This document shows positions 1-22,123 of a stretch of 64,000 nucleotides of DNA, piece by piece; position 1 is the first letter of the stretch; each line of letters starts with the position of its first letter. A program made the position numbers and the translations under genes. This DNA is from Candidatus Moranbacteria bacterium GW2011_GWE2_35_2-. GTDB lineage: Bacteria > Patescibacteriota > Minisyncoccia > Moranbacterales > UBA9337. Below the pieces are notes generated by a model, which was given only the letters and a program-made list of their open reading frames with translations, was not told the origin of the DNA and made no database searches. The stretch covers positions 15,504 through 79,503 of the forward strand of contig LBQD01000003.1 in the NCBI GenBank assembly GCA_000990585.1, written 5' to 3'.

Positions 1-1722
1 GACAGCGACGGCAATTCATCCATTGACGCCATTGCCTTTATTTCCGCCCGAGCAAGCTCAACATCTTTCACTGTCCAAGCCCGCGACGGAGCAAATCCGG
101 TCGCCGTTACCAACGACCAGGACTGGCAAATCTTCCGCGCTTACACCACGCTGGACAACGCCGAAGGCGGAGCGGAAAACACCGCCAACATTGACGACGA
201 TGTGGATGATTTTGACATCTCCGTCAGCCGAAATGACGGAAAAGATATTTACGCCAGCAACGAACAATGGAACATCGCGGCGTATGCGAATGGAACAACG
301 GCGGATACGAACGCGGTGACGATTGATAGTTGGACAACTTATCCGACTAATTATATCAAAATTTATACTCCGGTTTCGAGTTCTGAAGTTGGGACTAGCC
401 AGAGGCATAACGGGGTTTGGGACGATGGGAAGTATAAAATGGAAATTACCGGGAATTCTTCAGCAATAAATGCGGTATCTGGAAATGTTTGGGTTGACGG
501 TCTTCAGATAAAAAGAATGACATCATCATCGTTTGGAACTATTTATGGTATAACTAATTCTGGTGTTTTTAAAGTAAATAATAATATTATTAATCTTATT
601 GATAATTATACTAATACAACCAGGGCTATAAATAATGGCGCAAGCAATTTAAATTCTTATTATTGGAATAATATAATTTATGGAACTAATTTGGACTATG
701 GATATTATCAAGCATCTGCCTATGGATATTTATATAATAATTCCGTTATAGATGCGAATAATGGTTATTACAGTTCATTTTCCAATAAAATGACAGTAAA
801 AAATAATATTGCACAAGGAGGAGCCGACGGATTTTTCGCATCAAGCAGTTTATTTGGAGCAGGATCAGACTATAACGTATCTGATTTTGCCAACGACGCG
901 CCGTCGCCTTCGTATCGCACAAATCTGGCAACCGATGTCTCCTTTGTTGACGAAACTAATGAAGATTTTCATTTATCGTCATCTGATACTTTCGCCTGCG
1001 ATGCCGGGGTGAATTTGTGGGATGATTCTGCTTTGCCGATTCGAGAGGATATTGATGGTGATCCTCGATCGGAGCAAGGCGGATGGGACATCGGGGCGGA
1101 TGAGTTGATTACGTATCAAAGTAATGTTTCGGGACTCGGAACAGCGACAATGCAGATGTCACTCACGGAAAAAATGACAGATGGACTGGTGGGAATGTGG
1201 AGCTTTGACGGTCCCGATATATCGGGAACCACTGCCTACGATCGAAGCCCCGCCGGAGGAAACGACGGAACCATTACCGGAGCCACCCCCGCCATCGGTA
1301 AAAGAGGACAAGCACTTTCATTTAATGGAACGACGGATTTTGTGGATGCGGGAGATGTTGGCGCAGGAATACAAACTATTTCTTTTTGGATGAAAACTGA
1401 TGATGCGACTGACATAAAAATTTTGAATATAGACGGAACGGATCAAATTGAAATTGATGGAACGGGTAATATTTTGGCGACTAGCTTTCCATCTGCCACA
1501 ATTTATGTTGACGGCTCGGTTTCCGCGGCGGTCGACACTTCTTGGCATTTTGTAACCATCACTGATTCAACAGGCGTGAGTGCTTCCACTTTTCAAATCG
1601 GACAAGTTGCATCATCTTTCTTTGATGGAATAATTGATGAAGTTCGCATTTACAATCGAGTATTGAGTGTAGATGAAATTGGTAGATTGTATGATTTGGG
1701 GAATGTGGAATATGTGAGATGA
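1..1722 (+). CDS. Surface protein, 5'-partial: right-handed parallel beta-helix module followed by a LamG-like (concanavalin A-like lectin) jellyroll domain
   Basis: Frame 1 is open from base 1; the track ORF at 202 is an internal Met. The translation DSDGNSSIDAIAFISARASSTSFTVQARDG... duplicates module D of the 2390-7606 protein. It has NN-rich beta-helix rungs (YGYLYNNSVIDANNGYY) and FVDETNEDFHLSSSDT ... WDIGADE. The C-terminal half, LVGMWSFDGPDISGTTAYDRSPAGGNDGTITG...ALSFNGTTDFVDAGD...IDEVRIYNRVLSVDEI, is a classic LamG_3 signature. Confidence 0.8.
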   Translation, partial: DSDGNSSIDAIAFISARASSTSFTVQARDGANPVAVTNDQDWQIFRAYTTLDNAEGGAENTANIDDDVDDFDISVSRNDGKDIYASNEQWNIAAYANGTTADTNAVTIDSWTTYPTNYIKIYTPVSSSEVGTSQRHNGVWDDGKYKMEITGNSSAINAVSGNVWVDGLQIKRMTSSSFGTIYGITNSGVFKVNNNIINLIDNYTNTTRAINNGASNLNSYYWNNIIYGTNLDYGYYQASAYGYLYNNSVIDANNGYYSSFSNKMTVKNNIAQGGADGFFASSSLFGAGSDYNVSDFANDAPSPSYRTNLATDVSFVDETNEDFHLSSSDTFACDAGVNLWDDSALPIREDIDGDPRSEQGGWDIGADELITYQSNVSGLGTATMQMSLTEKMTDGLVGMWSFDGPDISGTTAYDRSPAGGNDGTITGATPAIGKRGQALSFNGTTDFVDAGDVGAGIQTISFWMKTDDATDIKILNIDGTDQIEIDGTGNILATSFPSATIYVDGSVSAAVDTSWHFVTITDSTGVSASTFQIGQVASSFFDGIIDEVRIYNRVLSVDEIGRLYDLGNVEYVR

Positions 1723-1978
1723 ATTTTAAATTGCACAAATTTTAAATTTTCAAACAATTCCGATAGGGTTGTGTGAATACGAGGGATTTAGGAGTTGTGA
1801 TGAGCGGGTGGGGAGAGTAGCTCAAATGACAAATTTCTAATTTCCAATGACAAATCAAAATAACAAAAAAAGATTTTTTATCAATGAGGGAGATGTGGTA
1901 AAATGGAGGAGTGGTGAGGTTTGGAGAGTAATATAAATTTTCAATTTCTAATTTTCAATTTTCAAACAATTTTAAATT

Positions 1979-2353
1979 TTGGAATTTATGAATTATAATC
2001 TGGAAGAAAGAACTAGGATTTTTAGCAAAGAAATAATTAGATTTTTGGTGAAAATAAAAAAGAATAGGATTAATGAAAACATCATTTCTCAATTAATAAG
2101 ATCCGCAACTAGCGTGGGTGCTAATTATTGCGAAGCCAACGGAGCCAGTTCAAAGAAAGATTTTAGCAATAAAATATTTATATGTCGCAAAGAAATACAA
2201 GAAACAAAATACTGGGTTGAACTCTTAGCCGAAGCCAGTCCGGAAGAAAAAGATAATTTGAAAAAACTTTGGAAAGAAGCTCATGAGTTGACATTAATTT
2301 TCAATAAAATTTCTAAAACATTAAAAGAAAAAAATTTGAAATTAAAAAATTAA
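1979..2353 (+). CDS. Four-helix-bundle protein of the 23S rRNA intervening-sequence (IVS) family
   Basis: QLIRSATSVGANYCEANGASSKKDFSNKIFICRKEIQETKYWVELL matches the conserved core of the IVS-encoded four-helix-bundle family (SxGANxAEA ... KDF ... KEakETkYWLeLL). The gene is flanked by inverted AT-rich repeats (1941-1978 and 2366-2393). Confidence 0.75.
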   Translation: MEFMNYNLEERTRIFSKEIIRFLVKIKKNRINENIISQLIRSATSVGANYCEANGASSKKDFSNKIFICRKEIQETKYWVELLAEASPEEKDNLKKLWKEAHELTLIFNKISKTLKEKNLKLKN

Positions 2354-2389
2354 ATCATTGAAAATTGTTTAGAAATTTAAAATTGAAAA

Positions 2390-5300
2390 TTGAAAATTAA
2401 AAACGCAATGCCAAAACTAAAACTTACAATATTATTCCTAGCCTTCATATTTCTTCCGACCATCGCTCATGGGGCGACTGAATTTATCTCCGTCATCGAT
2501 CCTGACAATGGTTCTGGAACAGATTACACTTCTCTTTCTGCTTGGGAAGCGGCGAATCAAGTTGATTTAACTGCGGCGACTACTTTGGTGATTGCCGGAA
2601 GTTTGACGCGTGGAACGATTGCTGATGGGACTCCGATAACCCAGACCACCTCGGGAGCCACGGCGGTTTGCGTCCATCACACTGAAACGCAAATGCTCAT
2701 CTCTACTCTTAGTGGAACTCCCAATGCCACCGACACTTGGTTTCCGACCGTTGATGGAAGCGACGCAACCAATGCTTGGACTCCGACCGATGCCGGCGAC
2801 AGTGCTATTGCGATTGCCAAATGCCGATCTACTTCTGGAACTGCCGACACAACTGCCGTTACCGTTGACGGTTGGACAACTTCCGCCGACAATTACATCA
2901 AAATCTGGACCGACCCAAGCGAGAATTATCGGCATCAGGGGAAGTGGGATGAGGGGAAGTATCGGCTGGAAGTTCCTCAGATATCCGGCGGAGGTAGTGG
3001 AATTAGAATTTTGGAAGAATATGTTTGGATTGATGGTTTACAAATCAAAAGAGTTATAACAACCGAGGCGGGGCAAGCCTGTGTCGCCGTAGGTGGGGCT
3101 TCTGGTGAAATTAAAATTTCTAATAATGTGTGTGAAATCAAAAATAACACTACATATTATGAATATGGTATTTATAAATATACACTATCTTCATCGGCAA
3201 CTTATAAAATTTGGAACAATGTAATATACGGAGTTGTAGATACTGACAATAATTCTGGAAGCGGAATGTATTTGGCAGCTGTAAGTCCTGTAGCAGAGAA
3301 TACTTATGTATATAACAATACAGTGGTTGGCTCATATTATGGAATTGCAAAAAGTGGTGGTACATGTATTTCCAAAAACAATATCGCCTACAACAACACC
3401 ATCGACTATTCCGGTACATTTGATTCATCCTCAACCAACAATCTTTCTAAAGACGCAACCGCTCCGCCATATAATACATATTATACCAACACCAGCGTTA
3501 TTTTCGCCGACGAAACCAATCAAGACTTTCATCTTGATTCCGCCGATACCGCCGCTCGCAATCAAGGCGCGATTCTTTACGACTCCGGCGATGATGCCAA
3601 TTTGAATTTTACAACCGACATCGACAACAATGCCCGCTTGGATAGCGCGGGGACTTGGGATATTGGGGCGGATGAGGGGATTACGAAAGTTTACCGCAGT
3701 GTCGGACCATCTGCCACGGCCGCCATCGCTACCGGTGCGACCTATGGCAATGTGGAAGTGAAGCCGGTGTATGTTTCCGGCTCAACCACTAACATCGCAG
3801 ATTATGTGGCGACTTTTTGGTCTGATTTGCCGATTAATGTCGGAGTAGGCGACGCTTTGCAATATGACGATGACGACGACGGAGATATTGACGCGTCCGA
3901 TTCTATTGTTTTTATCACCAAAAGAATTGATGCCTCGCATTTCAGCGTCCGCACCGCCAGCGGAACCGCGCCCGCCAGCACTCTTGCGCCGGATTCGAAT
4001 TGGTCAATTTTTCGCTCATACACTTCGCTTTTCAATGCCGAAGCCGGAGATGAGAATGATTCCATTGATGACGATTTGGAAGCGTTTGAAAGCTGGAGCG
4101 GAGGAAAAGATCTGCAAACAAGCCAGGAGCAATGGAATATCGCGGCGTATGCCGGACAAGGTGGCGTGGCAGATACGGTGGCGGTGGCTATTGATGGTTG
4201 GACGACGACAGCGGATTCATATATCAAAGTTTATACTCCGACTAGGAGCGATGAGGTTGGGGTGAGCCAGCGGCATAGTGGAGTATGGGATGCGACAAAA
4301 TACAATTTGTCGACGGGGACGGGAGTAGCTTCGGTGGATCTGAGGGAGAATTATACGGTTTTTGACGGTTTACAGATAACAAATTCCGGCACCGCCTCAA
4401 CGGATAATGATATTCTTGTTGCGGGATATATTAGCTTTACGAATGTGAAAAATTCCATCATTAAGGGTGGATATAATGGAATATATCATAGTGTGAGCAA
4501 TATTATTTATGGTGGAAATAAATTTTACGGAAATATTATTTATGAGACATATTATTCCGGGATAAGGATATATTTATCAGGCGCCACCCCATTGTCTTCG
4601 TATGTATATAATAATACCGTGTACAATTGCAATGCCAGTAATACAGCATGGAGAGGCGGAATAGAAACATTGAATGCTGATGTTGTCAAAAACAATATCT
4701 CAATGGAAAATGGAAATTTGGATTTTGTGAATGCCAATGGTCAATCCTACAACATATCCTCCGATGCAACTGCTGTCGGTACCGGAAGCCTTGCTAGTCA
4801 AACTCTTTCTAATATCGCTTTTGTTTCCACCACAAGCGGTATTGGCACCGACCTTTCCAACGACCCATACATACCATTCAATACCGACATTGATTCCGCT
4901 TGCTTGCGAAAAGATAAGCAATCAAGAGTATCCAATGGCGGGGATGATTCTTGCTACACAAGACCCAAAGGAACAAACTGGGATATCGGTGCGCATGAGC
5001 TTATTACGAAAATTTACCGAAGCGTCGCGCCGGATGCGGACGGGACTTTGGAAGCGCTCACCACCGGTGCAAGCAACGCAATGACTATCGCCAGCTCAAC
5101 CGCCACTTTCGCCACTGCTTTGGCGGACAACATCGGCGTGGGCGACGCTATTCAATATGACGCTGACGGCGACGGAGATATTGATGCGTCCGATTCCATC
5201 GTTTTCATTTCCGGCCGAACGGACAGCACCCACTTCACCGTCAAAACCGCCAGCGGAACCGTTCCAACCGCCGTTTCCGCCGACACGGATTGGAGCCTTT

Positions 5301-7606
5301 TTCGCGCCTACACCAGCCTTGCCAACGCCGAAACCGGAACGGAAAATTTGGCAATTGACGCGGATTTGCGGAATTTTGACACTGGCAACCGCGACCTTGC
5401 TTCAAACAGCGAGCAATGGAATATTGCGTGCTATGCTAATGGGACGACGGCGGATACGGTTGAGGTGACGATTAGCGGCTGGACAACTGCGGCGCAGAAT
5501 TATATCAAAATTTATACTCCGTATTTATCGATTGAAGTCGGAACGAGCCAGAGGCATCAAGGGGTTTGGGATGAAGAGAAGTACATCCATTTAAATGAAA
5601 TCAATAGCACGGCTGTTTCTAATACACGGATTGACGGTTTACAGATATATAGATCCGGTGATGACGGGGGTTATTACGTGCGTGGAATAAATTCCGGTCC
5701 GAAAGCGGAGATTAGTAATAATATTATTAAAGCCAACTTAACCGGTTCTCAGGTTCATATCGGTATTTCTGAAGGGTATGCCGGCGTGAATAAAATATTT
5801 AATAATATTATTTATGATTTTAATGGTAATGCTGGAAATGAGTATGGAATTTATATTACCGGTGGAACGAATTATGTATATAATAATACAATATATAACT
5901 GTGAATATGGTATAAGTCAACAATATAGTGGTACGATTTTAGTAGCTAAAAATAATATTATAAAAGGTTCTGGTAATGTCAATGCTTATGTTGGAACTTT
6001 TACTAATTCTGATTACAACGCCACGGATGGAACAGATGTGGGTGATGGAGGAGTGCATAGCAAGATTTCCCAAACATTTTCTTTTGTTGATGAAGCCAAT
6101 GATGATTTCCATCTCTCCCCATCCGACACCGCTGCCCGCAACTCCGGCGCGGATCTTTCTCAGGATTATAATTTGCCGATTATATCCGATATTGACGGAC
6201 ATACACGACCCGCCTCCGCCATAGGCTCTGGCGTGGCGATGGACATCGGCGCCGATGAATCCGCCACTCCGATTTACCGCTCCATCGCTCCCAGTATGTC
6301 AACTTATCTTGACCGCGGAGTGGATGAATCTGGAACCGACCTTTCCATCTCCGGCACGACAATGACTTTGGAAAACGCCGCTCCGGACAACGTGGGCGTG
6401 GGCGACGTTATCCAATATGACAGCGACGGCAATTCATCCATTGATGCCATTGCTTTTATTTCCGCCCGAGCAAGCTCAACATCTTTCACTGTTCAAGCCC
6501 GCGACGGCTCACAACCGGTTGCCGTGACCAACGATCAGGATTGGCAAATCTTCCGCGCCTACACCACGCTGGACAACGCCGAAGGCGGAGCGGAAAACAC
6601 CGCCAACATCGACGACGATGTGGACGATTTTGACATCTCAGTCAGCCGAGCCGACGGCAAAGATATCTACGCCAGCAACGAACAATGGAACATCGCGGCG
6701 TATGCGAATGGAACAACGGCGGATACAGCGGCGGTGACGATTAGCGGTTGGACAACTTATCCGACGAATTATATCAAAATTTATACTCCGGTTTCAGCGA
6801 GTGAAGTCGGGGTGAGTCAGAGGCATGAGGGGAAGTGGGATGATGGGAAGTATAATATGGTAGTAAATAATAATACGGCTTTTACAAATCAAGAAGATTT
6901 CTTCAGAGTTGATGGATTGCAAGTGGAGGTAATAAATCCTTCAGCTAACAGTCAGAATTGTTTGAACTTTACAGGACTAACAACAGGAGGAAAAATATAT
7001 GTCAGCAATAATATTCTGCGAGGTCATTCATCCGAAACTTATAATCAAAGAGGAATTTTTTATTATAGTACTATGCAAAGTGTAGATTTTTATATTTATA
7101 ATAATATCGTATATGATTTCTTGAATAATTCATCAAGTTATGGTTTTTATTTAGGAGGAACTATTAGTAATTGGTATGTATATAATAATACAGTCTATAA
7201 TTGTTATTATGGCCTTCTTGCTTTAGCAGGGGCGGATCCTTACTATTTTAATAATATTGTTCAAAATTGTACGGATGGATTCGGTTCTACGAGAGATGCT
7301 TCTTCTGATTTCAATATTTCCAATACATCTCAAGCAGACGCTGATTCAGTTAATGCCACCTTCAACGGATATAAAACAGTTTCCTTTATTGATGAATTTA
7401 ATGACAATTTCCACCTTGCTTCATATGATACGGCGGCGAAGGGGAATGGGGTGGATTTGTCGGGCGACAGCTACCTACCGTTTTCAACTGACGTCGACGG
7501 AGACACTCGCGTTCGTTGGGACATCGGCGCCGATGAATTCGGAGCGACCCAATCAATAAAATTCCGCGGAGATGTGAAAACGAGAGGGGATGTGAAGATA
7601 CGGTGA
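2390..7606 (+). CDS. Giant secreted surface protein (1738 aa) made of four tandem ~430-aa right-handed beta-helix (pectate-lyase-like/PbH1) modules
   Basis: Signal peptide MKIKNAMPKLKLTILFLAFIFLPTIAHG. There are four repeats of [WNIAAYA..ADT.AVTI.GWTT...NYIKIYTP...SQRH.G.WD..KY — NN-rich beta-helix rungs YVYNNT.YNC — DFHL.S.DTAA.N.G — WDIGA.E — IYRS.AP]. The DFHL...DIGAxE ending is typical of Beta_helix (PF13229-type) domains. Confidence 0.85.
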   Translation: MKIKNAMPKLKLTILFLAFIFLPTIAHGATEFISVIDPDNGSGTDYTSLSAWEAANQVDLTAATTLVIAGSLTRGTIADGTPITQTTSGATAVCVHHTETQMLISTLSGTPNATDTWFPTVDGSDATNAWTPTDAGDSAIAIAKCRSTSGTADTTAVTVDGWTTSADNYIKIWTDPSENYRHQGKWDEGKYRLEVPQISGGGSGIRILEEYVWIDGLQIKRVITTEAGQACVAVGGASGEIKISNNVCEIKNNTTYYEYGIYKYTLSSSATYKIWNNVIYGVVDTDNNSGSGMYLAAVSPVAENTYVYNNTVVGSYYGIAKSGGTCISKNNIAYNNTIDYSGTFDSSSTNNLSKDATAPPYNTYYTNTSVIFADETNQDFHLDSADTAARNQGAILYDSGDDANLNFTTDIDNNARLDSAGTWDIGADEGITKVYRSVGPSATAAIATGATYGNVEVKPVYVSGSTTNIADYVATFWSDLPINVGVGDALQYDDDDDGDIDASDSIVFITKRIDASHFSVRTASGTAPASTLAPDSNWSIFRSYTSLFNAEAGDENDSIDDDLEAFESWSGGKDLQTSQEQWNIAAYAGQGGVADTVAVAIDGWTTTADSYIKVYTPTRSDEVGVSQRHSGVWDATKYNLSTGTGVASVDLRENYTVFDGLQITNSGTASTDNDILVAGYISFTNVKNSIIKGGYNGIYHSVSNIIYGGNKFYGNIIYETYYSGIRIYLSGATPLSSYVYNNTVYNCNASNTAWRGGIETLNADVVKNNISMENGNLDFVNANGQSYNISSDATAVGTGSLASQTLSNIAFVSTTSGIGTDLSNDPYIPFNTDIDSACLRKDKQSRVSNGGDDSCYTRPKGTNWDIGAHELITKIYRSVAPDADGTLEALTTGASNAMTIASSTATFATALADNIGVGDAIQYDADGDGDIDASDSIVFISGRTDSTHFTVKTASGTVPTAVSADTDWSLFRAYTSLANAETGTENLAIDADLRNFDTGNRDLASNSEQWNIACYANGTTADTVEVTISGWTTAAQNYIKIYTPYLSIEVGTSQRHQGVWDEEKYIHLNEINSTAVSNTRIDGLQIYRSGDDGGYYVRGINSGPKAEISNNIIKANLTGSQVHIGISEGYAGVNKIFNNIIYDFNGNAGNEYGIYITGGTNYVYNNTIYNCEYGISQQYSGTILVAKNNIIKGSGNVNAYVGTFTNSDYNATDGTDVGDGGVHSKISQTFSFVDEANDDFHLSPSDTAARNSGADLSQDYNLPIISDIDGHTRPASAIGSGVAMDIGADESATPIYRSIAPSMSTYLDRGVDESGTDLSISGTTMTLENAAPDNVGVGDVIQYDSDGNSSIDAIAFISARASSTSFTVQARDGSQPVAVTNDQDWQIFRAYTTLDNAEGGAENTANIDDDVDDFDISVSRADGKDIYASNEQWNIAAYANGTTADTAAVTISGWTTYPTNYIKIYTPVSASEVGVSQRHEGKWDDGKYNMVVNNNTAFTNQEDFFRVDGLQVEVINPSANSQNCLNFTGLTTGGKIYVSNNILRGHSSETYNQRGIFYYSTMQSVDFYIYNNIVYDFLNNSSSYGFYLGGTISNWYVYNNTVYNCYYGLLALAGADPYYFNNIVQNCTDGFGSTRDASSDFNISNTSQADADSVNATFNGYKTVSFIDEFNDNFHLASYDTAAKGNGVDLSGDSYLPFSTDVDGDTRVRWDIGADEFGATQSIKFRGDVKTRGDVKIR

Positions 7607-7731
7607 TTAGGGTGCAGTGATTATGAGCGGATGGGGAGAGTAGTTCCAATGACAAATCAAATCAAAAATCCAAATGACGAAATATAGCAATCGGCTTGAT
7701 TTTTAGCGTATTTTATGCTAATATATTAGAT

Positions 7732-8034
7732 ATGAATAGCTTGAAGATCAAAGTTAATAAGTTGTTTTGGTTTTTAGGAAAGGGCGGGGATTTTTCCAAA
7801 GATCGACATTTGATTATCCATCAAACGCTGGCTTTGGGATCGATGCAGGACGTACAAAGACTTTTTCGGGAATACGGACAAGAGAGCATAACGCATGAAT
7901 TTCAAAAACCAGTTTCGGGTCTTTACACTCCCGCAGTGTTTCATTTTTTTGAGCATATCTTGGGTGTTGAAATAAAAAATAGCGGGCGATATATTAAAAA
8001 TATACATGGAAAAACTTCATTTAGACATTCTTGA
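7732..8034 (+). CDS. Small protein translationally coupled to the AbiEii-like nucleotidyltransferase; putative cognate antitoxin or partner
   Basis: ~100-aa ORF whose 3' end overlaps the start of the downstream NTase gene by 29 nt, an arrangement typical of toxin–antitoxin pairs. No recognisable motif. The alternative start 7696 is further upstream. Confidence 0.35.
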   Translation: MNSLKIKVNKLFWFLGKGGDFSKDRHLIIHQTLALGSMQDVQRLFREYGQESITHEFQKPVSGLYTPAVFHFFEHILGVEIKNSGRYIKNIHGKTSFRHS

Positions 8035-8653
8035 TCAAGAGAGAAAGAATATTTTCCAAAAACTTTCCGCTTTCCGATCAATCGGATATTTGTCAGGCGG
8101 AACAGCTTTGGCGTTGCAACTGGGACACCGGGTGTCATATGATTTTGATATTTTTTGCGCCAAAGAAATTCCAGCGATGTTCGCTGCTAAAGTTCAAAAA
8201 GAAATAGTTGTCCGTCAAGTGCTGGTGAATAATAGTGATGAATTTACATTTCTTACCGACCACGACATTAAAGTGTCTTTTATTTTCTATCCTTTTGATT
8301 TGAAAAAATACGTGTTTGAATTTCCAGACGTTCCTATGGAATTAATTTCCCCACTGGGTATTGCGATTACAAAGGCTTATGCGCTAAACAGGCGGAATGC
8401 TTGGCGTGATTATGTTGATTTGTATGTAATTTTGAAAAAAGAAATCACGACTCTGGAAAATATTGTCAATGCGGCTCGCATTGCGTATGGGGAATTGTTT
8501 AATGAAAAGCTTTTTTTATCGCAACTATTATACACGCAAGATATTTCAAAGGCGGAAATAGAGAATACGCAAATGCTTGAATCAGCGACGCTTTTTGAAG
8601 TTGTGTCTTTTTTTGAAAAAGAAGTCAAAGCATATTGGGAAAGAAAGCTGTAA
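8006..8653 (+). CDS. AbiEii/DUF1814-type nucleotidyltransferase (type IV TA / abortive-infection toxin family)
   Basis: GYLSGGTALALQLGHRVSYDFDIF matches the GGTAL...R.S.D.D motif of the AbiEii nucleotidyltransferase fold. Size is 215 aa. Confidence 0.6.
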   Translation: MEKLHLDILDQERKNIFQKLSAFRSIGYLSGGTALALQLGHRVSYDFDIFCAKEIPAMFAAKVQKEIVVRQVLVNNSDEFTFLTDHDIKVSFIFYPFDLKKYVFEFPDVPMELISPLGIAITKAYALNRRNAWRDYVDLYVILKKEITTLENIVNAARIAYGELFNEKLFLSQLLYTQDISKAEIENTQMLESATLFEVVSFFEKEVKAYWERKL

Positions 8654-8656
8654 TAA

Positions 8657-8757
8657 TAGCTGGCTCGGAATCGGAAATGAAACTTCCGATGTCAATTCTG
8701 ACGGAGTTGTGAATACGAGGGATTTGGGAATAATGATGAGCGGATGGGGAGAGTAGC
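8657..8757 (+). pseudogene. Orphan 3'-end fragment of a beta-helix/dockerin surface-protein gene
   Basis: ctggctcggaatcggaaatgaaacttccgatgtcaatt(c/t)(c/t)gacggagttgtgaatacgagggatttggg... is near-identical to 18703-18808 (the C-terminus of the 17319-18809 protein, ...LGIGNETSDVNSDGVVNTRDLG.MMSGW). Here it sits directly after the unrelated NTase gene. Confidence 0.8.
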
Positions 8758-8783
8758 TTATTTAAATGACAAATTTCCAATTA

Positions 8784-8925
8784 ACCCCCTCCCCTTTGAA
8801 GGGGAGGGTTGGGGAGGGGTTAGAAACTATGGATAACCAAAAATCCAAACAATTATGAAAAAACCTCAGAAACAAAGAAAGTTTCACACCTCCCCCAACC
8901 CCTCCTCCCGAGGAGGGGAGGAAAG
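8784..8925. repeat. Two GC-rich palindromic / G-quadruplex-type elements in an AT-rich intergenic region
   Basis: 8784-8821 CCCCCTCCCCtttgaaGGGGAGGGttGGGGAGGGG is a perfect hairpin and contains four G-runs (G4 A G3 TT G4 A G4). 8888-8922 cctcccccaacccctcctcccgaggaggggagg is a C-rich mirror of it, giving a G4 motif on the minus strand plus a hairpin. Confidence 0.6.
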
Positions 8926-8993
8926 CTAGTTGGAAACTATTGTGATATAATTTGTTTGTTGGATGTAAATAAAAAAATAATAGTAAAAATATT

Positions 8994-9563
8994 ATGAACA
9001 AAAAAGTGATTATTATTATCGCAGTTGCCGTTTTGATTTTGGGAGCGCTGGGAATTTGGAAGTTTTGGGGAGGGAAAGGCGATTCTTCGGAAGAAAATAC
9101 CAAACAAGTTTATCAAGCGATGGTGGCTGTTCGCGACCAGAAAAATTCCGATCCGGTGGAAGACGCACGCAATTCTCTTAAAGCTGGAGATGTGATTTTG
9201 GTCAAAAGCGGAGAAAACAATCCGTGGTCGGATACGGAAAAAGCGAGCAATTTGATCTTGAAAATGGAATTGAACGAGGAGCAGGCGCAGAAACTTGTCG
9301 AGTCGGTGACGGAAAAATTGGGAAAGGATGAAAAAAAGAGCCAATTGGCGGAATATGAAAAATCAATAAAAGAAAATAGCGGACAACTTGACGAAGAAGA
9401 AATGAAAAGATATGAAGAAGAATTGGACGGCCAGGAAAACGTCGTTGTTCTTCGAAAATACCGCATCGATTTCGACGAAATTGATTTTGTGCCGGAAAAA
9501 TGGAGCGGCACTCAGCTTTTTGATGGAAAAATTTTCAACTGGTCGATTGTGGAGAAAAAATAA
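8994..9563 (+). CDS. Hypothetical membrane-anchored protein with an acidic coiled-coil region
   Basis: N-terminal transmembrane segment IIIIAVAVLILGALGIW. No recognisable domain. Confidence 0.5.
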   Translation: MNKKVIIIIAVAVLILGALGIWKFWGGKGDSSEENTKQVYQAMVAVRDQKNSDPVEDARNSLKAGDVILVKSGENNPWSDTEKASNLILKMELNEEQAQKLVESVTEKLGKDEKKSQLAEYEKSIKENSGQLDEEEMKRYEEELDGQENVVVLRKYRIDFDEIDFVPEKWSGTQLFDGKIFNWSIVEKK

Positions 9564-9665
9564 CCAAGAGACTTTTCAGATAGATTTCAGTCCGGCGTTT
9601 GCGTAAAATCCTCTTTTTTAATATAATAGAGCTATTGAAACATTAAACAAGGAATTAATAAAAAT

Positions 9666-12263
9666 ATGGAAATAAAGGTAAATACGGGCTCCGGAATAAA
9701 AAAAAACGATGAATATTTGGAAAGAACCAGAATTGAAAAATTTGCTCCTTCTGCGGAAAGCAAAACGGAACGGGTTTTTGCTTCAAAAATCGAACCTAAG
9801 CGAAATGCTTTTGTTTCGGAAATAAAAAAGGAAGTTAGCGGAAAAGAAAAGAAAGGCTTCCTTCATTTTTTTGGCAACATATCCGACAAAATTATCGGAC
9901 TGAGTATTTTTATGATTTTTTTCGGAGTGCCATTATTTTTTACCGGAATTACTTTTCAGGGAATATCATTTGAAAAACAAATTTATTTTTATCTTTGGTT
10001 GTTGGTTGGATTGGTGGCATGGTTGGCAAAAAGCATTAAAACCGGTGAGATGAGAATTCGCAAAACTCCATTGGATATTCCTATTTTTTTGTTTTGGGGT
10101 GCCTATCTCGCTTCGCTGGCTTTTTCCGTCGACCACTGGCACAGCTTTTTTGGATTTTTCGGAGATCCGTCAAGAGGATTTTTGAATGTGACGGCTTTTG
10201 TGGTGGCGTATTATTTCTTTTTCTCCCATATTGAAAAAGAAAGAATAAAATTGGCATTGGGGGCGATTGTTGCGAGCGGAACACTGGTGTCGGCTTGGAC
10301 GATTGTTCGCTTGTTGAATCTGCAAATTATCCCACAAGTTGTTTTAGAAAATTCTCCCGCAAGTTTGTTGGGATCTTTTTCGGGACTGAATATTTTTTTG
10401 GGAGTTTTTGTTCTTTTGTCCGTTGGCGCTATTTTGAAAATTGTTTCTTTGGAAAAATTGTCTAGCACAAAGAAAATAGTAACAATAATTTTTCTTTTTA
10501 TAGCTCTTTTTTTCGGTGCGGCAGCTTTTGTTTTAGTGCAAAGTTTTGCTTTTTGGCCGGCAATCTTGATTGGGAGTGGAATTTTTTCTTTATATGCTTT
10601 TTCTCGGGTAATAAAAATGCCTTTTCATTGGATTTGGCTTCCAATGGCGGTTTTCGTTTTTTTTATGGCAATTTTTATGGTGGGAGACAGAAATCTGAAT
10701 TTGTCGCGCGTGAGTTTGCCGGCGGAAGTGAGTCTCTCTTACGGATTATCATGGGATATTATCAAGGAAGGGATGAAAGAGAGTGTTATTTCCGGATCGG
10801 GACCGGCGACATATGGATACGCTTTTTCAAAATTCAAACCGCAAGATTTCAATCTAAATCAATTTTACGACTTGCGTTTCTATCAAGGTTCCGGGTTATT
10901 GTTTGAATCGGTTCCGACGATTGGAATTTTGGGAACAGTCTTTTTGTTTTTGTTGGTTTTTTCCTATCTGAGTGTTTCTGTCTATTTGATTTCACGGGAA
11001 AAGGATAAGGAAAAAACATTATCTTTATCGTTTTTTTCCGCTTCCGTTATTTTGATTTTGGGAATATTTATTTCTAAGGCTTCCGGTCCGATTGTTTTAC
11101 TTGGATTTTTAGTATCGGCAATGGCATTACTTTCAATTATTTTGGAAAGTGAGGCGCAGGCTAATTATTTTGATTTGTCGCTCAAAGCTTCTCCGAAATA
11201 TGCACTTTCTTTGGCTTTTGTTTTTGTAGTGCTCAGCAGTGCAATTGTTTTTTCTTTTGTTTTTTTGGGCAAAGTGTTTGCCAGTGACGCATTGGCAGGG
11301 ATAGCAATTAAGGAAAGCCGTGAGGATAGGGAAAAAGCGGTGGAGAAAATGCAACGAGCAATTGCGCTTAATCCGAAAGAGGGAAGATATTATACTCGTT
11401 TAGGACAGGAATATTTGATTTTAACCAATGAGCAAGCAATCGGAAAAGATGCGAAAAATAATACAGAGAAGATCAAAAAATATTTAAGTAATTCCATTCT
11501 TCTTTTGAACAAAGGAAAGGAATTGATGAATAATGATTTGAACGCAGTCGAAGGTTTGGCGCAGGCGTATGAAAATGCAGGACTCTATGTTTTTGAATCG
11601 AACAAAAAAGCATTGGAAAATTATGAAAGAGCTGCCGAGCTTGATCCGAATAATCCGAATTTACAGGTCAAGATTGGAAAGGTGCGGATGACTCTTTCCG
11701 GCGCTATGGAAGATAATGATGAGAAAAAGGCGTATATGGAAGATACTAAAAAAGTCTTGGAAAAATCCGTAGAACTGAAAAAGAACTTTGCTGACGGATA
11801 TTATAATTTGGCATTGGCTCAGGAGCAGATGGGATCGCTAGATTCTTCGGTTGCAAATATGGAAAAAGCTGCGACGCTCAGTCCTTCTAATGTGAATGTG
11901 TTTTTCAATTTGGGAAGATTATATCAAAAGCGTTCCGGCGAAGAAGATTTGAAAAAAGCGGAAGCTATTTTCAAAAAGATATTGGAAATAAACAAGGATG
12001 ATGTTAATACCAATTTTAGTCTCGGGCTTTTGTTCGAAAAAACCAACCGCAAAAATGAAGCGATTGAGCAATATCGAAAAGTCATTGCCCTAATTGAAAG
12101 CGGACAGCAAAATGAAATTGCGAAGAAAAATATTGAGCAAATAAACGCAATGATTTCAAATATTCAAAAAGGACAAAACAACAATGTTCAGCAAGTAGAG
12201 GAAAATGTTCTAGAAAATCAAGAACAAAAAATTCCAGAAGTTGAGGTTATCGAAGGGGAATAG
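9666..12263 (+). CDS. Polytopic membrane protein with an O-antigen ligase/polymerase-like (Wzy_C) core and a C-terminal TPR repeat domain
   Basis: About 12 transmembrane segments are followed by TPR-like repeats (ALNPKEGRYYTRLGQEYL, AAELDPNNPNLQVKIGKV, ATLSPSNVNVFFNLGRLYQK). This architecture is common in CPR genomes. Confidence 0.6.
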   Translation: MEIKVNTGSGIKKNDEYLERTRIEKFAPSAESKTERVFASKIEPKRNAFVSEIKKEVSGKEKKGFLHFFGNISDKIIGLSIFMIFFGVPLFFTGITFQGISFEKQIYFYLWLLVGLVAWLAKSIKTGEMRIRKTPLDIPIFLFWGAYLASLAFSVDHWHSFFGFFGDPSRGFLNVTAFVVAYYFFFSHIEKERIKLALGAIVASGTLVSAWTIVRLLNLQIIPQVVLENSPASLLGSFSGLNIFLGVFVLLSVGAILKIVSLEKLSSTKKIVTIIFLFIALFFGAAAFVLVQSFAFWPAILIGSGIFSLYAFSRVIKMPFHWIWLPMAVFVFFMAIFMVGDRNLNLSRVSLPAEVSLSYGLSWDIIKEGMKESVISGSGPATYGYAFSKFKPQDFNLNQFYDLRFYQGSGLLFESVPTIGILGTVFLFLLVFSYLSVSVYLISREKDKEKTLSLSFFSASVILILGIFISKASGPIVLLGFLVSAMALLSIILESEAQANYFDLSLKASPKYALSLAFVFVVLSSAIVFSFVFLGKVFASDALAGIAIKESREDREKAVEKMQRAIALNPKEGRYYTRLGQEYLILTNEQAIGKDAKNNTEKIKKYLSNSILLLNKGKELMNNDLNAVEGLAQAYENAGLYVFESNKKALENYERAAELDPNNPNLQVKIGKVRMTLSGAMEDNDEKKAYMEDTKKVLEKSVELKKNFADGYYNLALAQEQMGSLDSSVANMEKAATLSPSNVNVFFNLGRLYQKRSGEEDLKKAEAIFKKILEINKDDVNTNFSLGLLFEKTNRKNEAIEQYRKVIALIESGQQNEIAKKNIEQINAMISNIQKGQNNNVQQVEENVLENQEQKIPEVEVIEGE

Positions 12264-16905: not shown

Positions 16906-18809
16906 ATGAATATAATAATTTTACTAAAACATAAGCTAAGTATATTTTTAGTTAGTTGTATATTTATTTATTTGGGATCGGTAGGTGTGTCGGCTGCCAG
17001 TTTTCCTGTTCTATTATTTTCCGATCTCACCGACGCTCCTGTTTCCGGCTGGGAAGGTTCGCCAACCAAAGGAGCAGCCATATCCATTTGGGGAAGAAAT
17101 CTTGGAACAGAAAGAGGTTCTTCCTATGTAACCATAGGAGGAGTCAATCTTACCAATGACAGTGATTATGCCGAATGGGGAGCGACAACTAACCCAACAA
17201 CTGCCAGCGGACAACAAAGAATAACTTTCTGGCTCAATTCTTCACTTTTTACACAAGAAATACTGGAAATATTTATTTTGTCAGTACGACAGGGAATGAT
17301 TCAAATGACGGGCTTAGTGTGGCGAGTGCTTGGACCACTTTTGGAAAGGCTCGTGAAACTGTTGTTGCAGGAGATGTTGTGTATTTTAAATCTGGAATAT
17401 GGACAGCTTATGATCATGGTTCAACGTGGGCCAATGCTGTGCTCTATTTTAGGACAACTTCCGGTGTTTCTAATCATAACAACGGGACATTAAATAATAG
17501 TATTGCTTTTTCTTCGTATCCCGGAGAGGTTGCGCAAATGTGTAATGGAAATAATGCCGATGGCGGAAATGCAACCAGTGGTTTTTATCGACATGGTGAT
17601 AGCGTGCAAGATCGCCTTGAATACTGGACCTTATCGAAGTTTAAAGTTGTAGCGTGGCATTATGGTTTCAAGTGGTCAAATATAGATTTAACCTATGATA
17701 ATAATCTTCGTATAATCGGTTGGGATGCCACAACAACCATTCCAAGAACGGATATAAATACCCCGGAATCTATTGGCGGACAAATAATGTCGCAAAACGG
17801 AGATCAGGATGATATTTATATTCTCGGAAATTATATGCACCATTCCGGATTGTCTTCAGAAGAAGATGAAGATAATTTTGGTTATAAAGTTCAATCAATA
17901 TATATTAGCGGATTTAACGGACAATATTCAAATATACATATAGGACATAATGATTTTGCTCATAACAGCGGAAATTTGCAGGTTTATGCGCACAATTCTT
18001 CTGATATTATTGATGATATTTATATTTATGATAATTGGTTTCATGATGGCGGAACAACGGGAATGGTTTTAAATGGCGGTGATGGATTAACTGAATATTC
18101 TTTTATTACGACGGCTTATGTTTATAATAATATTTTTTCAAATAATCTTAGTTATGCTGCCAAATTAACTGATGGGTCGACAGGAAGCCATGGGGGCACA
18201 TTTTATTTTTATAATAATACATGCTACAACAATAGTGATGCGGAAATTTTTAGTCCCAATCCTGCGGCATTGTATGTTGTAAATAATATCTTTCAAACAT
18301 CGGCGTTGGTTTATTTTTCTTATTCTCCGGGAGATGATTCTGGAAATTTTGGTTCTCATAATCTTTTTTATGGTTCTGTTGGTGCTATTCCAAGCTGGTC
18401 AACTAATAATATTATTATTAACCCTCTTTTCACCTCTCCTTCCACTAATGATTTCACTCTCCAATCAACTTCCCCCGCTATCAATGCAGGCACAACCCTC
18501 GCTTCGGTTCCCAACGACTTTCTCGGAGTCTCCCGTCCCCAAGGGATATCCTATGACATCGGAGCTTTTGAATATGTTAGCGCAGCCGAAGAAACCTGCA
18601 CCGACAACATCCAAAACCAAGACGAAACTGGAATCGATTGCGGAGGAGTATGTGAGGCTTGCGTCGTTCCGATAACTTATGGATTAAGCAACTTCATCTC
18701 CGCCATCACCAACTGGCTCGGAATCGGAAATGAAACTTCCGATGTCAATTCCGACGGAGTTGTGAATACGAGGGATTTGGGGGTGATGATGAGTGGGTGG
18801 TCAAATTAA
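16906..18809 (+). pseudogene. Secreted right-handed beta-helix protein with a Cys-rich motif and a dockerin-like C-terminal tail, interrupted by a -1 frameshift at a T5 tract
   Basis: A signal peptide ORF (16906-) in frame 1 runs into junk after ~17250. Frame 3 opens at 17193 and continues NTGNIYFVSTTGNDSNDGLSVASAWTTFGKARETVVAGDVVYF (a typical beta-helix N-cap) to ...SRPQGISYDIGAFEY...CTDNIQNQDETGIDCGGVCEAC...DVNSDGVVNTRDLGVMMSGWSN. Inserting one T at 17246-17250 restores a single ORF. Confidence 0.75.

Positions 18810-20582: not shown

Positions 20583-22123
<1,541 letters not shown>

What the first reader, a model, noticed from the sequence alone, without database searches (positions are those of the whole stretch)
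1..7606. Giant surface proteins built from whole beta-helix domains in tandem, with near-identical nucleotide tracts between genes
The 1738-aa protein (2390-7606) is four complete right-handed beta-helix domains in a row. Each spans IYRSxAP … WNIAAYA … NYIKIYTP … NN-rich rungs … DFHL … WDIGAxE. The upstream partial gene repeats the same module and then adds a LamG lectin domain. Window bases 1-310 are about 95% identical to 6419-6730, and the similarity continues at lower identity to roughly 440 versus 6860. The conserved GC-rich module ends (IYRS…QYD.DGDGDIDASDSIVFIS…, …EQWNIAAYANGTTADT…) contrast with AT-rich divergent beta-helix cores. This pattern suggests ongoing gene conversion or cassette shuffling, and therefore possibly antigenic or adhesin variation, rather than ancient duplication. 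The window starts inside a module, so the array extends upstream.
Basis: seen in the sequence. Interest (0 to 1): 0.7.

Follow-up and report, generated by a model that had tools for sequence, protein, structure and literature searches.

The report
Cassette-swapping multi-beta-helix secreted proteins
Two neighbouring genes of an ultra-small groundwater bacterium (Candidatus Moranbacteria) encode secreted proteins made of four beta-helix modules, each with a conserved frame around an exchangeable middle, and comparison with relatives shows these middles have been swapped between genes, module positions and genomes, much as phages swap receptor-binding domains.

Summary

The tract is not a special module-to-module event. 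It is one of four conserved blocks in a collinear paralogy between the big gene and the upstream gene. The full upstream gene has 1907 aa, four modules and a LamG domain in a near-identical assembly.

- Conserved blocks: 82-99% nt identity, dS about 0.04-0.8, GC3 0.47-0.58.
- Central-rung cores: 40-60% nt identity, dS saturated, GC3 0.27-0.36.

Across four genomes the cores assort independently. One core is 97% identical (dS 0.10) between genes whose flanks have dS 0.85-1.1. The upstream gene's module-4 core matches a module-1 core in another genome. Cores of the same type are under purifying selection (dN/dS 0.11-0.19).

Cassette shuffling over evolutionary time is therefore supported. Ongoing within-population variation is not shown. 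The only differences among assemblies lie at the edge of an exact inter-paralogue repeat and look like assembly artefacts. A role in host-glycan recognition is inferred, not shown.

The parts
1..1722 (+). 3' end (codons 1335-1907) of the upstream paralogue, which in the near-identical assembly is the 1907-aa four-module + LamG gene. Sub-parts: module-4 conserved head and first rungs 1-441; variable core 442-942; C-terminal cap 943-1104; LamG tail 1105-1719.
   Evidence: Window 1-11708 equals L001 14003-25724 apart from two indels. The module HMM hits residues 1-368. LamG is PF13385.
1755..1842 (+). Frame-disrupted remnant of DNA that elsewhere encodes a dockerin-like C-terminal tail (..DVNSDGVVNTRDLGVMMSGW..).
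   Evidence: blastn to 8693-8782 and 18746-18800; alignment and translation.
1988..2353 (+). Small four-helix-bundle gene (23S_rRNA_IVP family) between the two beta-helix genes, bracketed by an inverted repeat 1936-1994 / 2340-2398.
   Evidence: Pfam PF05635, E 5e-16; inverted repeat; same gene order in L001.
2408..7606 (+). Four-module beta-helix protein gene. Signal peptide 2408-2473.
2474..2940 (+). Conserved block C1: module-1 head and first rungs. 89% nt identical to the paralogue; GC3 0.47.
2945..3470 (+). Variable core V1: central beta-helix rungs of module 1. 46% nt identical to the paralogue; GC3 0.30.
3500..4300 (+). Conserved block C2: C-cap of module 1 plus head domain and first rungs of module 2. 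84% nt identical; GC3 0.52.
4307..4727 (+). Variable core V2. 62% nt identical to the paralogue, aa identity 50-78%, dS saturated.
4758..4840 (+). Site of the only differences among assemblies. The 28 bp at 4758-4785 are absent from L001. A 42-bp segment encoding SEDLHISPTSVAKN is absent from the window after 4839 but present in L001, L051, L052 and the paralogue. The contigs of L051 and L052 start at 4786.
4727..5520 (+). Conserved block C3: C-cap of module 2 plus head and first rungs of module 3. 88% nt identical; GC3 0.55.
5525..6090 (+). Variable core V3. 44% nt identical to the paralogue; 64-77% aa identical to P0009 from another genome.
6095..6800 (+). Conserved block C4: C-cap of module 3 plus head and first rungs of module 4. 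89% nt identical; GC3 0.58.
6815..7560 (+). Variable core V4 plus the last C-cap and short tail. 46% nt identical to the paralogue; GC3 0.30.
7623..7657 (+). Second remnant of the dockerin-like tail sequence (..MSGWGE*), just after the stop codon.

Best explanation
The region holds two tandem paralogous genes of a very large, essentially unannotated family of secreted multi-module proteins. The family is found in Patescibacteria (CPR) and other ultra-small lineages.

Each ~420-aa module has four parts:
- a small N-terminal beta domain (~130 aa);
- two to three conserved first rungs of a right-handed beta-helix, ending at the motif QRHxGxWDxxKY;
- a ~160-aa stretch of central rungs that is effectively a different sequence type in almost every module;
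- a conserved C-terminal cap (FVDExNxDFHL...TDIDGxxR...WDIGADE).

Shown: These blocks stay 80-95% identical at nucleotide level among paralogues and among genomes. They act as homology arms, and recombination within them has moved ~0.5-0.7-kb core cassettes between paralogues, between module positions and between genomes. Each core type is itself old and evolves under purifying selection, so diversity comes from re-assortment of a deep pool of types and not from fast point mutation.

Inferred: each core presents a different glycan-binding, and possibly glycan-cleaving, surface. The protein would then be a multivalent recogniser of host or prey cell-surface polysaccharides, and cassette exchange would retune specificity in the way phages exchange tailspike or depolymerase domains. 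The elevated GC3 of the conserved blocks may be a footprint of GC-biased gene conversion. That too is inferred.

The confidence of 0.72 is for the whole statement. For the architecture and the evolutionary cassette exchange alone I would put it near 0.85. For the glycan-recognition function alone, about 0.4.
For: Architecture.
- Four modules, from alignment and HMM, and a signal peptide.
- AF2 model of module 3: pLDDT 89.7, pTM 0.91.

Mosaic between the paralogues.
- Conserved blocks have aa identity 88-100% and dS 0.04-0.8. Cores have aa identity 20-60% and saturated dS. This includes core 2, which aligns without gaps.

Incongruent histories.
- The P0001 and P0002 module-1 cores are 96.8% nt identical with dS 0.105, while the flanks have dS 1.11 and 0.85. 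The tract runs roughly L001 10418-11077.
- Window 1-441 matches the P0004 module-4 head (87%), 298-972 matches the P0004 module-1 core (77%), and 943-1352 matches the P0004 module-4 tail (80%).
- In all-against-all comparison of 209 modules, 66 pairs have >=80% identity in the conserved part but <40% in the core.
- Conserved block C2 of the big gene is closer to P0004 than to its own paralogue.

Other support.
- Purifying selection within core types: dN/dS 0.11-0.19.
- Exact runs of 62-79 nt between the paralogues, against 0.18 expected at >=60 nt.
- GC3, and GC at four-fold sites, is higher in conserved blocks in 5 genes of 4 genomes, and in 25 of 26 further modules.
- Family size and spread: 3461 50%-identity cluster representatives at E<=1e-30, with up to 17 modules per protein. 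Taxa are mainly Moranbacteria, Parcubacteria and other CPR, plus DPANN, Omnitrophota and Elusimicrobia.
Against: - No functional data exist. No catalytic residues were identified.
- Sequence-profile matches to solved lyases are not significant (E 0.04-0.9).
- The window protein has no Pfam hit, and only 3 of 38 modules reach PF13229.
- Surface attachment is not shown. There is no recognisable anchor at the C-terminus.
- dS estimates in the most diverged cores rest on uncertain alignments.
- The direction, timing and mechanism of the exchanges (RecA-dependent recombination or transformation) were not determined.
- The conserved blocks of the two paralogues in this genome are only marginally closer to each other than to genes from other genomes, so within-genome homogenisation is weak.
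- The GC3 contrast has other possible causes.
Confidence: 0.72

Rival explanations
1. Plain ancient tandem duplication without recombination. The module ends are conserved because they are structurally constrained, and the cores have diverged under relaxed or diversifying selection.
For: Conserved blocks have very low dN (0.00-0.1). Cores retain only the Asn-ladder positions. The two genes are collinear over all four modules.
Against: Synonymous divergence differs several-fold between adjacent segments of the same gene pair. Cores are shared at dS 0.1 between genes whose flanks have dS ~1. A module-4 core matches a module-1 core elsewhere. Same-type cores are under purifying selection, not diversifying selection.
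Confidence: 0.07
2. A programmed, high-frequency antigenic-variation system of the pilE/pilS, vlsE or msp2 kind. Cassettes would be copied into expression sites during the life of a population.
For: Conserved flanks surround hypervariable cassettes, and several family genes are clustered. The only differences among assemblies of this population fall inside the gene. Exact identity patches of 62-79 nt occur between the paralogues. A DGR lies ~10 kb upstream, so the neighbourhood is devoted to surface variation.
Against: No promoter-less silent cassette array was found; every core seen lies in a long ORF with a signal peptide. No invertase or recombinase is nearby. Independent assemblies are 100% identical over 7.5-12.4 kb. 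The differing site coincides exactly with the edge of a ~100-bp exact repeat, where contigs also break, which is typical of an assembly artefact. The paralogue conserved blocks still differ by ~12%.
Confidence: 0.1
3. The mosaic is an artefact of short-read metagenome assembly, with chimeric joins between paralogues or strains at the conserved blocks.
For: Contigs break, and indels appear, at a repeat edge in this very gene. Exact inter-paralogue runs reach about 100 nt.
Against: The same alternating pattern appears in independent assemblies from NCBI, JGI and ENA projects with intact ORFs. It also appears in 200 non-redundant modules. L051 and L052 match the window exactly from 4840 onward, through cores 3 and 4. 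Cores of ~500 nt exceed read and k-mer length, so each core-flank junction is spanned by unique sequence.
Confidence: 0.03

Closest known systems
Phage tailspike / capsule-depolymerase receptor-binding proteins (P22/Sf6/HK620-type tailspikes; the multi-depolymerase Klebsiella phage K64-1; CBA120 TSP1-4)
   Different: The genes here are chromosomal and lie next to topA, dprA and lgt. The four beta-helices sit in one polypeptide instead of separate trimeric proteins. The exchange boundaries lie inside the beta-helix, after its first rungs and before its C-cap, and not at a domain linker. Trimerisation and enzymatic activity were not tested. Foldseek matches to viral models are weak.
Polysaccharide lyase and related carbohydrate-active beta-helix enzymes (PL6 alginate lyase 7dmk, PL9 Pel9A 1ru4, PL1 PelC 1air, chondroitinase B, AlgG)
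   Different: Sequence identity is 9-17%. No catalytic or Ca2+-binding residues were identified. The invariant residues of this family lie in the caps and first rungs, not in the central groove where those enzymes act.
Mosaic, cassette-type bacterial surface proteins (Neisseria pilE/pilS, Borrelia vlsE, Anaplasma msp2, Mycoplasma genitalium MgPa repeats)
   Same: Conserved flanks act as homology arms around hypervariable cassettes. Diversity comes from re-assortment.
   Different: No silent cassette arrays or dedicated expression site were seen. No within-population switching is shown. The cassettes are whole blocks of beta-helix rungs, four per protein, exchanged also between genomes.
NCBIfam NF041518 choice-of-anchor Q domain / 'right-handed parallel beta-helix repeat-containing protein' annotations
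   Same: The C-cap motif (DFHL...DIGAxE) resembles this domain. Some homologues carry these names in NCBI.
   Different: The window protein scores 20 bits against a cut-off of 25, in one module only. The annotation says nothing about the modular or cassette organisation.

Membership tests
Right-handed parallel beta-helix (pectin-lyase-like) fold | Three-stranded rungs coiled into a right-handed helix | tested here: met
Right-handed parallel beta-helix (pectin-lyase-like) fold | Sequence match to Pfam PF13229 Beta_helix at the curated threshold | tested here: not met
   The 1738-aa protein has no Pfam family at E<=0.01. Only 3 of 38 family modules hit PF13229. Some full-length homologues carry precomputed PF13229 or PF05048 hits.
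Choice-of-anchor Q domain (NCBIfam NF041518) | Score at or above the curated cut-off of 25 bits | tested here: not met
   20 bits, E 5.8e-4, residues 381-422 only.
LamG / concanavalin A-like lectin domain (PF13385) in the upstream gene | Score at or above the gathering threshold | tested here: met
   33.9 bits against 27.6, residues 499-560 of the partial protein.
Polysaccharide lyase / glycoside hydrolase enzymes with a beta-helix fold | Conserved catalytic and metal-binding residues in the central groove; significant sequence relationship to a CAZy family | tested here: inconclusive
   There is fold similarity only. Profile search against PDB sequences gives E 0.04-0.9. Catalytic residues were not examined.
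Programmed antigenic-variation cassette systems (pilE/pilS, vlsE, msp2) | Arrays of silent, promoter-less partial cassettes that donate to one expression site | tested here: not met
   The module HMM finds only the two long genes in the 64-kb window. The family genes in L001, L002 and L005 are long ORFs.
Programmed antigenic-variation cassette systems (pilE/pilS, vlsE, msp2) | Sequence heterogeneity of the expressed copy within one population | tested here: inconclusive
   The window and the three other assemblies differ only at 4758-4840, at the edge of an exact inter-paralogue repeat where two contigs also end. Reads are not available here.
Programmed antigenic-variation cassette systems (pilE/pilS, vlsE, msp2) | Conserved flanks around the variable cassette | tested here: met
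Diversity-generating retroelement (DGR) target | The variable region differs from a template repeat only at template adenines, with no indels | tested here: not met
   Cores differ at 40-60% of all positions and contain indels. The DGR found upstream in L001 targets the Lcl_C gene, where all 17 of 17 mismatches fall at TR adenines.
Phage tailspike / depolymerase | Virion-associated and encoded in a phage genome; homotrimeric | not testable with these tools
   The context is chromosomal, with topA, dprA, lgt and tRNAs. The oligomeric state was not modelled.

The most novel reading that the evidence does not exclude
These proteins are the host-range determinants of episymbiotic or predatory ultra-small prokaryotes (CPR, DPANN, Omnitrophota). 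Each would be a chromosomal, multivalent counterpart of phage tailspike or depolymerase sets, in which interchangeable blocks of beta-helix rungs each recognise, and perhaps cut, a different host surface glycan. The frame sequences would be kept similar at the nucleotide level, including at GC-enriched synonymous sites, because they serve as recombination arms through which cassettes circulate among paralogues and across lineages by natural transformation.
Probability: 0.22. Interest if true: 0.82.

Novelty: new variant of a known kind. Interest (0 to 1): 0.6.

Why it matters
How CPR and DPANN cells recognise and attach to their hosts is largely unknown. This family is very large: 3461 clusters at E<=1e-30, with up to 17 modules per protein. 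It is almost unannotated, it is secreted, and it has the fold of glycan-active proteins. Its evolutionary signature, old cassette types under purifying selection that are re-assorted between conserved arms, is the one seen in phage receptor-binding proteins and serotype loci.

That makes it a concrete candidate for host-specificity determinants, and the idea can be tested by glycan binding, by localisation and by correlation with host range. The exchange of central rungs within a single beta-helix, four times per polypeptide, together with the family-wide GC3 excess of the conserved arms, would also interest people who study protein modularity and GC-biased gene conversion in bacteria.

Tried and rejected
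- The first AF2 run, with 18 close modules, gave pLDDT 53.8 and was discarded. A 38-sequence alignment fixed this.
- Pfam and NCBIfam scans of the window protein gave nothing above threshold.
- A profile search of PDB sequences gave only non-significant hits.
- Foldseek against viral models gave weak, generic beta-helix matches.
- The afdb50 library was unavailable.
- The search for related loci with the 38-sequence alignment failed for lack of a conserved stretch. The 18-sequence alignment worked.
- The exact window protein is not on record in the contig index.
- tblastx of the related loci against the rest of the window gave mostly noise. Its one useful result was the dockerin-like tail element.
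- Four literature searches found no description of this family or of its mosaic structure. The Omnitrophota 'giant genes' preprint concerns different proteins with an antiparallel beta-helix.
- A two-rate change-point fit over-extended the P0001/P0002 tract, so I set its boundaries from the 30-nt mismatch counts.
- DGR mutagenesis as the source of core diversity was considered and rejected. So was amino-acid composition as the sole cause of the GC contrast, because the four-fold sites show the same contrast.

Full report
**What is at the coordinates**

The window comes from a low-GC (36.5%) bacterial chromosome. The genes after the region are a DUF6922/AbiEii pair, a TPR protein, topoisomerase I, DprA, an AI-2E transporter and Lgt.

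Homology searches place the window in Candidatus Moranbacteria (CPR/Patescibacteria). Window 1-11708 is identical to GCA_000989265.1 contig LBTC01000001.1 (locus L001, 14003-25724) except for two indels.

The ORF 2390-7606 is real. The ATG at 2408 followed by MPKLKLTILFLAFIFLPTIAHG|A is a plausible Sec signal peptide (read from the sequence).

The protein consists of four ~420-aa modules, each ending in [WM]DIGAxE. The partial ORF 1-1722 carries one more module plus a LamG domain (PF13385).

L001 shows that this upstream gene is a 1907-aa protein (P0001) with a signal peptide, four modules and LamG. More family genes and a 23S_rRNA_IVP gene lie around it.

**The nucleotide tract**

- blastn gives 1-442 vs 6419-6860 at 89.4%.
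- The ungapped identity of 1-310 is 92.9%, with dS 0.30.

The tract is real and far beyond chance, but it is not near-identical and not unique. The two genes are collinear paralogues over their whole length. Three further blocks are 79-88% identical.

**Fold**

Pfam finds nothing in the 1738-aa protein. NCBIfam's choice-of-anchor Q domain is sub-threshold. Only 3 of 38 family modules reach PF13229.

The first ~130 residues form a separate small beta domain. The beta-helix claim is confirmed, but the family is remote from curated models.

**Mosaic anatomy**

A codon alignment of the two paralogues shows strict alternation.

| Segment type | Window coordinates | aa identity | nt identity | NG86 dS |
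|---|---|---|---|---|
| Conserved blocks | 2465-2940, 3500-4300, 4727-5520, 6095-6800 | 88-100% | 82-99% | 0.04-0.8 |
| Cores | 2945-3470, 4307-4727, 5525-6090, 6815-7560 | 20-60% | 40-60% | saturated |

Core 2 aligns without gaps at 50-78% aa identity and still has saturated dS. The contrast is therefore not just bad alignment.

The variable core is the central ~160 aa of rungs between the motifs QRHxGxWDxxKY and FVDExNxDFHL.

**Evidence for cassette exchange**

I aligned the big gene with P0001 and with relatives from three other genomes: P0002, P0004 and P0007, plus the partial P0009. The conserved blocks are 80-100% aa identical among all of them, while the cores are 15-45% identical. There are specific exceptions.

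- The module-1 cores of P0001 and P0002 are 96.8% nt identical with dS 0.105. The flanking head and next conserved block have dS 1.11 and 0.85. The tract runs roughly L001 10418-11077, about 0.66 kb.
- The module in the window's upstream gene is a three-way mosaic relative to P0004:
  - 1-441 matches P0004's module-4 head (87%);
  - 298-972 matches P0004's module-1 core (77% nt, 83% aa);
  - 943-1352 matches P0004's module-4 tail (80%).
- Core 3 and part of core 1 of the big gene are shared with P0009.
- Among 209 modules, 66 pairs are >=80% identical in the conserved part but <40% in the core.
- Same-type cores have dN/dS of 0.11-0.19. The cores are therefore functional, ancient types that are re-assorted, not fast-mutating sequence.
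- Between the two paralogues there are exact runs of 62-79 nt, against 0.18 expected at >=60 nt. In the L001 version one run reaches ~100 nt. This is compatible with occasional short conversion tracts.
- The paralogues' conserved blocks are only slightly closer to each other than to genes of other genomes, and block C2 is closer to P0004.

**Composition**

The GC oscillation persists at third positions. GC3 is 0.47-0.58 in conserved blocks, 0.27-0.36 in cores and 0.32 in other window genes.

It also persists at four-fold degenerate sites: 0.55-0.67 in blocks C2-C4 (0.37-0.57 in C1) against 0.19-0.55 in cores, in five genes of four genomes. In 26 further modules from other genomes, conserved-part GC3 exceeds core GC3 in 25, by +0.15 on average.

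Amino-acid composition alone does not explain this. GC-biased gene conversion in the recombining arms is one reading, and it is untested.

**Is it ongoing?**

The window differs from L001 only by two indels: 28 bp at 4758-4785, absent from L001, and 42 bp after 4839, absent from the window. Both fall inside module 2. In L001 the gene is split into 783 + 932 aa.

Two further assemblies, L051 and L052, are 100% identical to the window from 4840 on, and their contigs start exactly at 4786. They, L001 and the paralogue all contain the 42 bp. At 4786 the two paralogues become exactly identical for ~100 bp.

This is what short-read assemblers do at a repeat edge. I therefore read these differences as probable artefacts, including the window's in-frame loss of the DFHL-motif codons. 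Reads would be needed to be sure.

No silent cassettes or recombinases were found nearby.

**Family and context**

- The profile finds 19,713 representatives at E<=1e-3, 8,689 at E<=1e-10 and 3,461 at E<=1e-30 among 1.84 billion clusters. Some proteins have 15-17 modules in 6257-7731 aa.
- Of the top 120 hits, most carry 2-4 full modules, with a maximum of 7. 200 of 204 modules are non-redundant at 80% identity.
- Genomes carrying the family are mostly Moranbacteria, Parcubacteria and other CPR. There are also DPANN archaea, Omnitrophota, Elusimicrobia and a few bins labelled as proteobacteria or Bdellovibrionales.
- I found no paper describing the family or its mosaic organisation.

**Verdict**

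'Ongoing' variation and the adhesin or antigenic role remain unproven.

The best functional analogy is a chromosomal, multivalent version of phage tailspike or depolymerase modularity. Membership in any enzyme family is not established.

Noticed in passing
L001 3162-5644 (same genome, about 10 kb upstream of window position 1): A complete-looking diversity-generating retroelement: an Lcl_C-domain target gene, bAvd and a reverse transcriptase. The VR (3676-3802) and TR (4418-4544) differ at 17 positions, all at TR adenines. The cassette-mosaic beta-helix genes therefore sit next to a second, mechanistically different surface-diversification system.
   Followed up: partly
window 1755-1842, 7623-7657, 8670-8782 and 18591-18809: DNA encoding a dockerin-like C-terminal tail (IGNETSDVNSDGVVNTRDLGVMMSGW..) ends the unrelated beta-helix ORF 17319-18809. 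It recurs as remnants just after the stop codons of both family genes and, in intact frame, after the DUF6922/AbiEii pair. That pair (7696-8653) is thus bracketed by two copies of ..ATGAGCGGATGGGGAGAGTAG..AATGACAAAT, as if the toxin-antitoxin pair had been inserted into the 3' end of a gene.
   Followed up: partly
window 4758-4840: The window's module 2 lacks 14 codons (SEDLHISPTSVAKN, the DFHL motif of the conserved C-cap) that three other assemblies and the paralogue all have. L001 lacks 28 bp that the window has, which splits its gene. Two other contigs end here. This is probably an assembly artefact at the edge of an exact ~100-bp inter-paralogue repeat.
   Followed up: yes
window 1936-2398: A 23S_rRNA_IVP-family four-helix-bundle gene (1988-2353) lies between the two beta-helix genes and is flanked by an ~80% inverted repeat (1936-1994 / 2340-2398). 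A similar AT-rich sequence recurs at 21618-21744. One homologue (P0015) and the 884-aa neighbour in L001 have PF05635 hits fused to or next to family genes.
   Followed up: no
window 2408-7603 and loci L001-L046: Synonymous-site GC is 15-30 points higher in the conserved frame than in the variable cores. This holds in the window, in 4 related genes and in 25 of 26 more distant modules. The cause is unexplained; GC-biased gene conversion is a candidate.
   Followed up: partly
window 16906-18809: A TIG-domain ORF (16906-17493) overlaps a 496-aa beta-helix-like ORF (17319-18809) in another frame. This may be one gene with a frameshift. It does not match the module HMM, so it belongs to a different beta-helix family.
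   Followed up: no
L001 15083-15724; alignment columns 1950-2050: The C-terminal LamG region of the P0001/P0002/P0004 group also contains a hypervariable stretch (17-33% aa identity) between conserved flanks. The conserved-arm / variable-insert design may therefore extend to the lectin domain.
   Followed up: no
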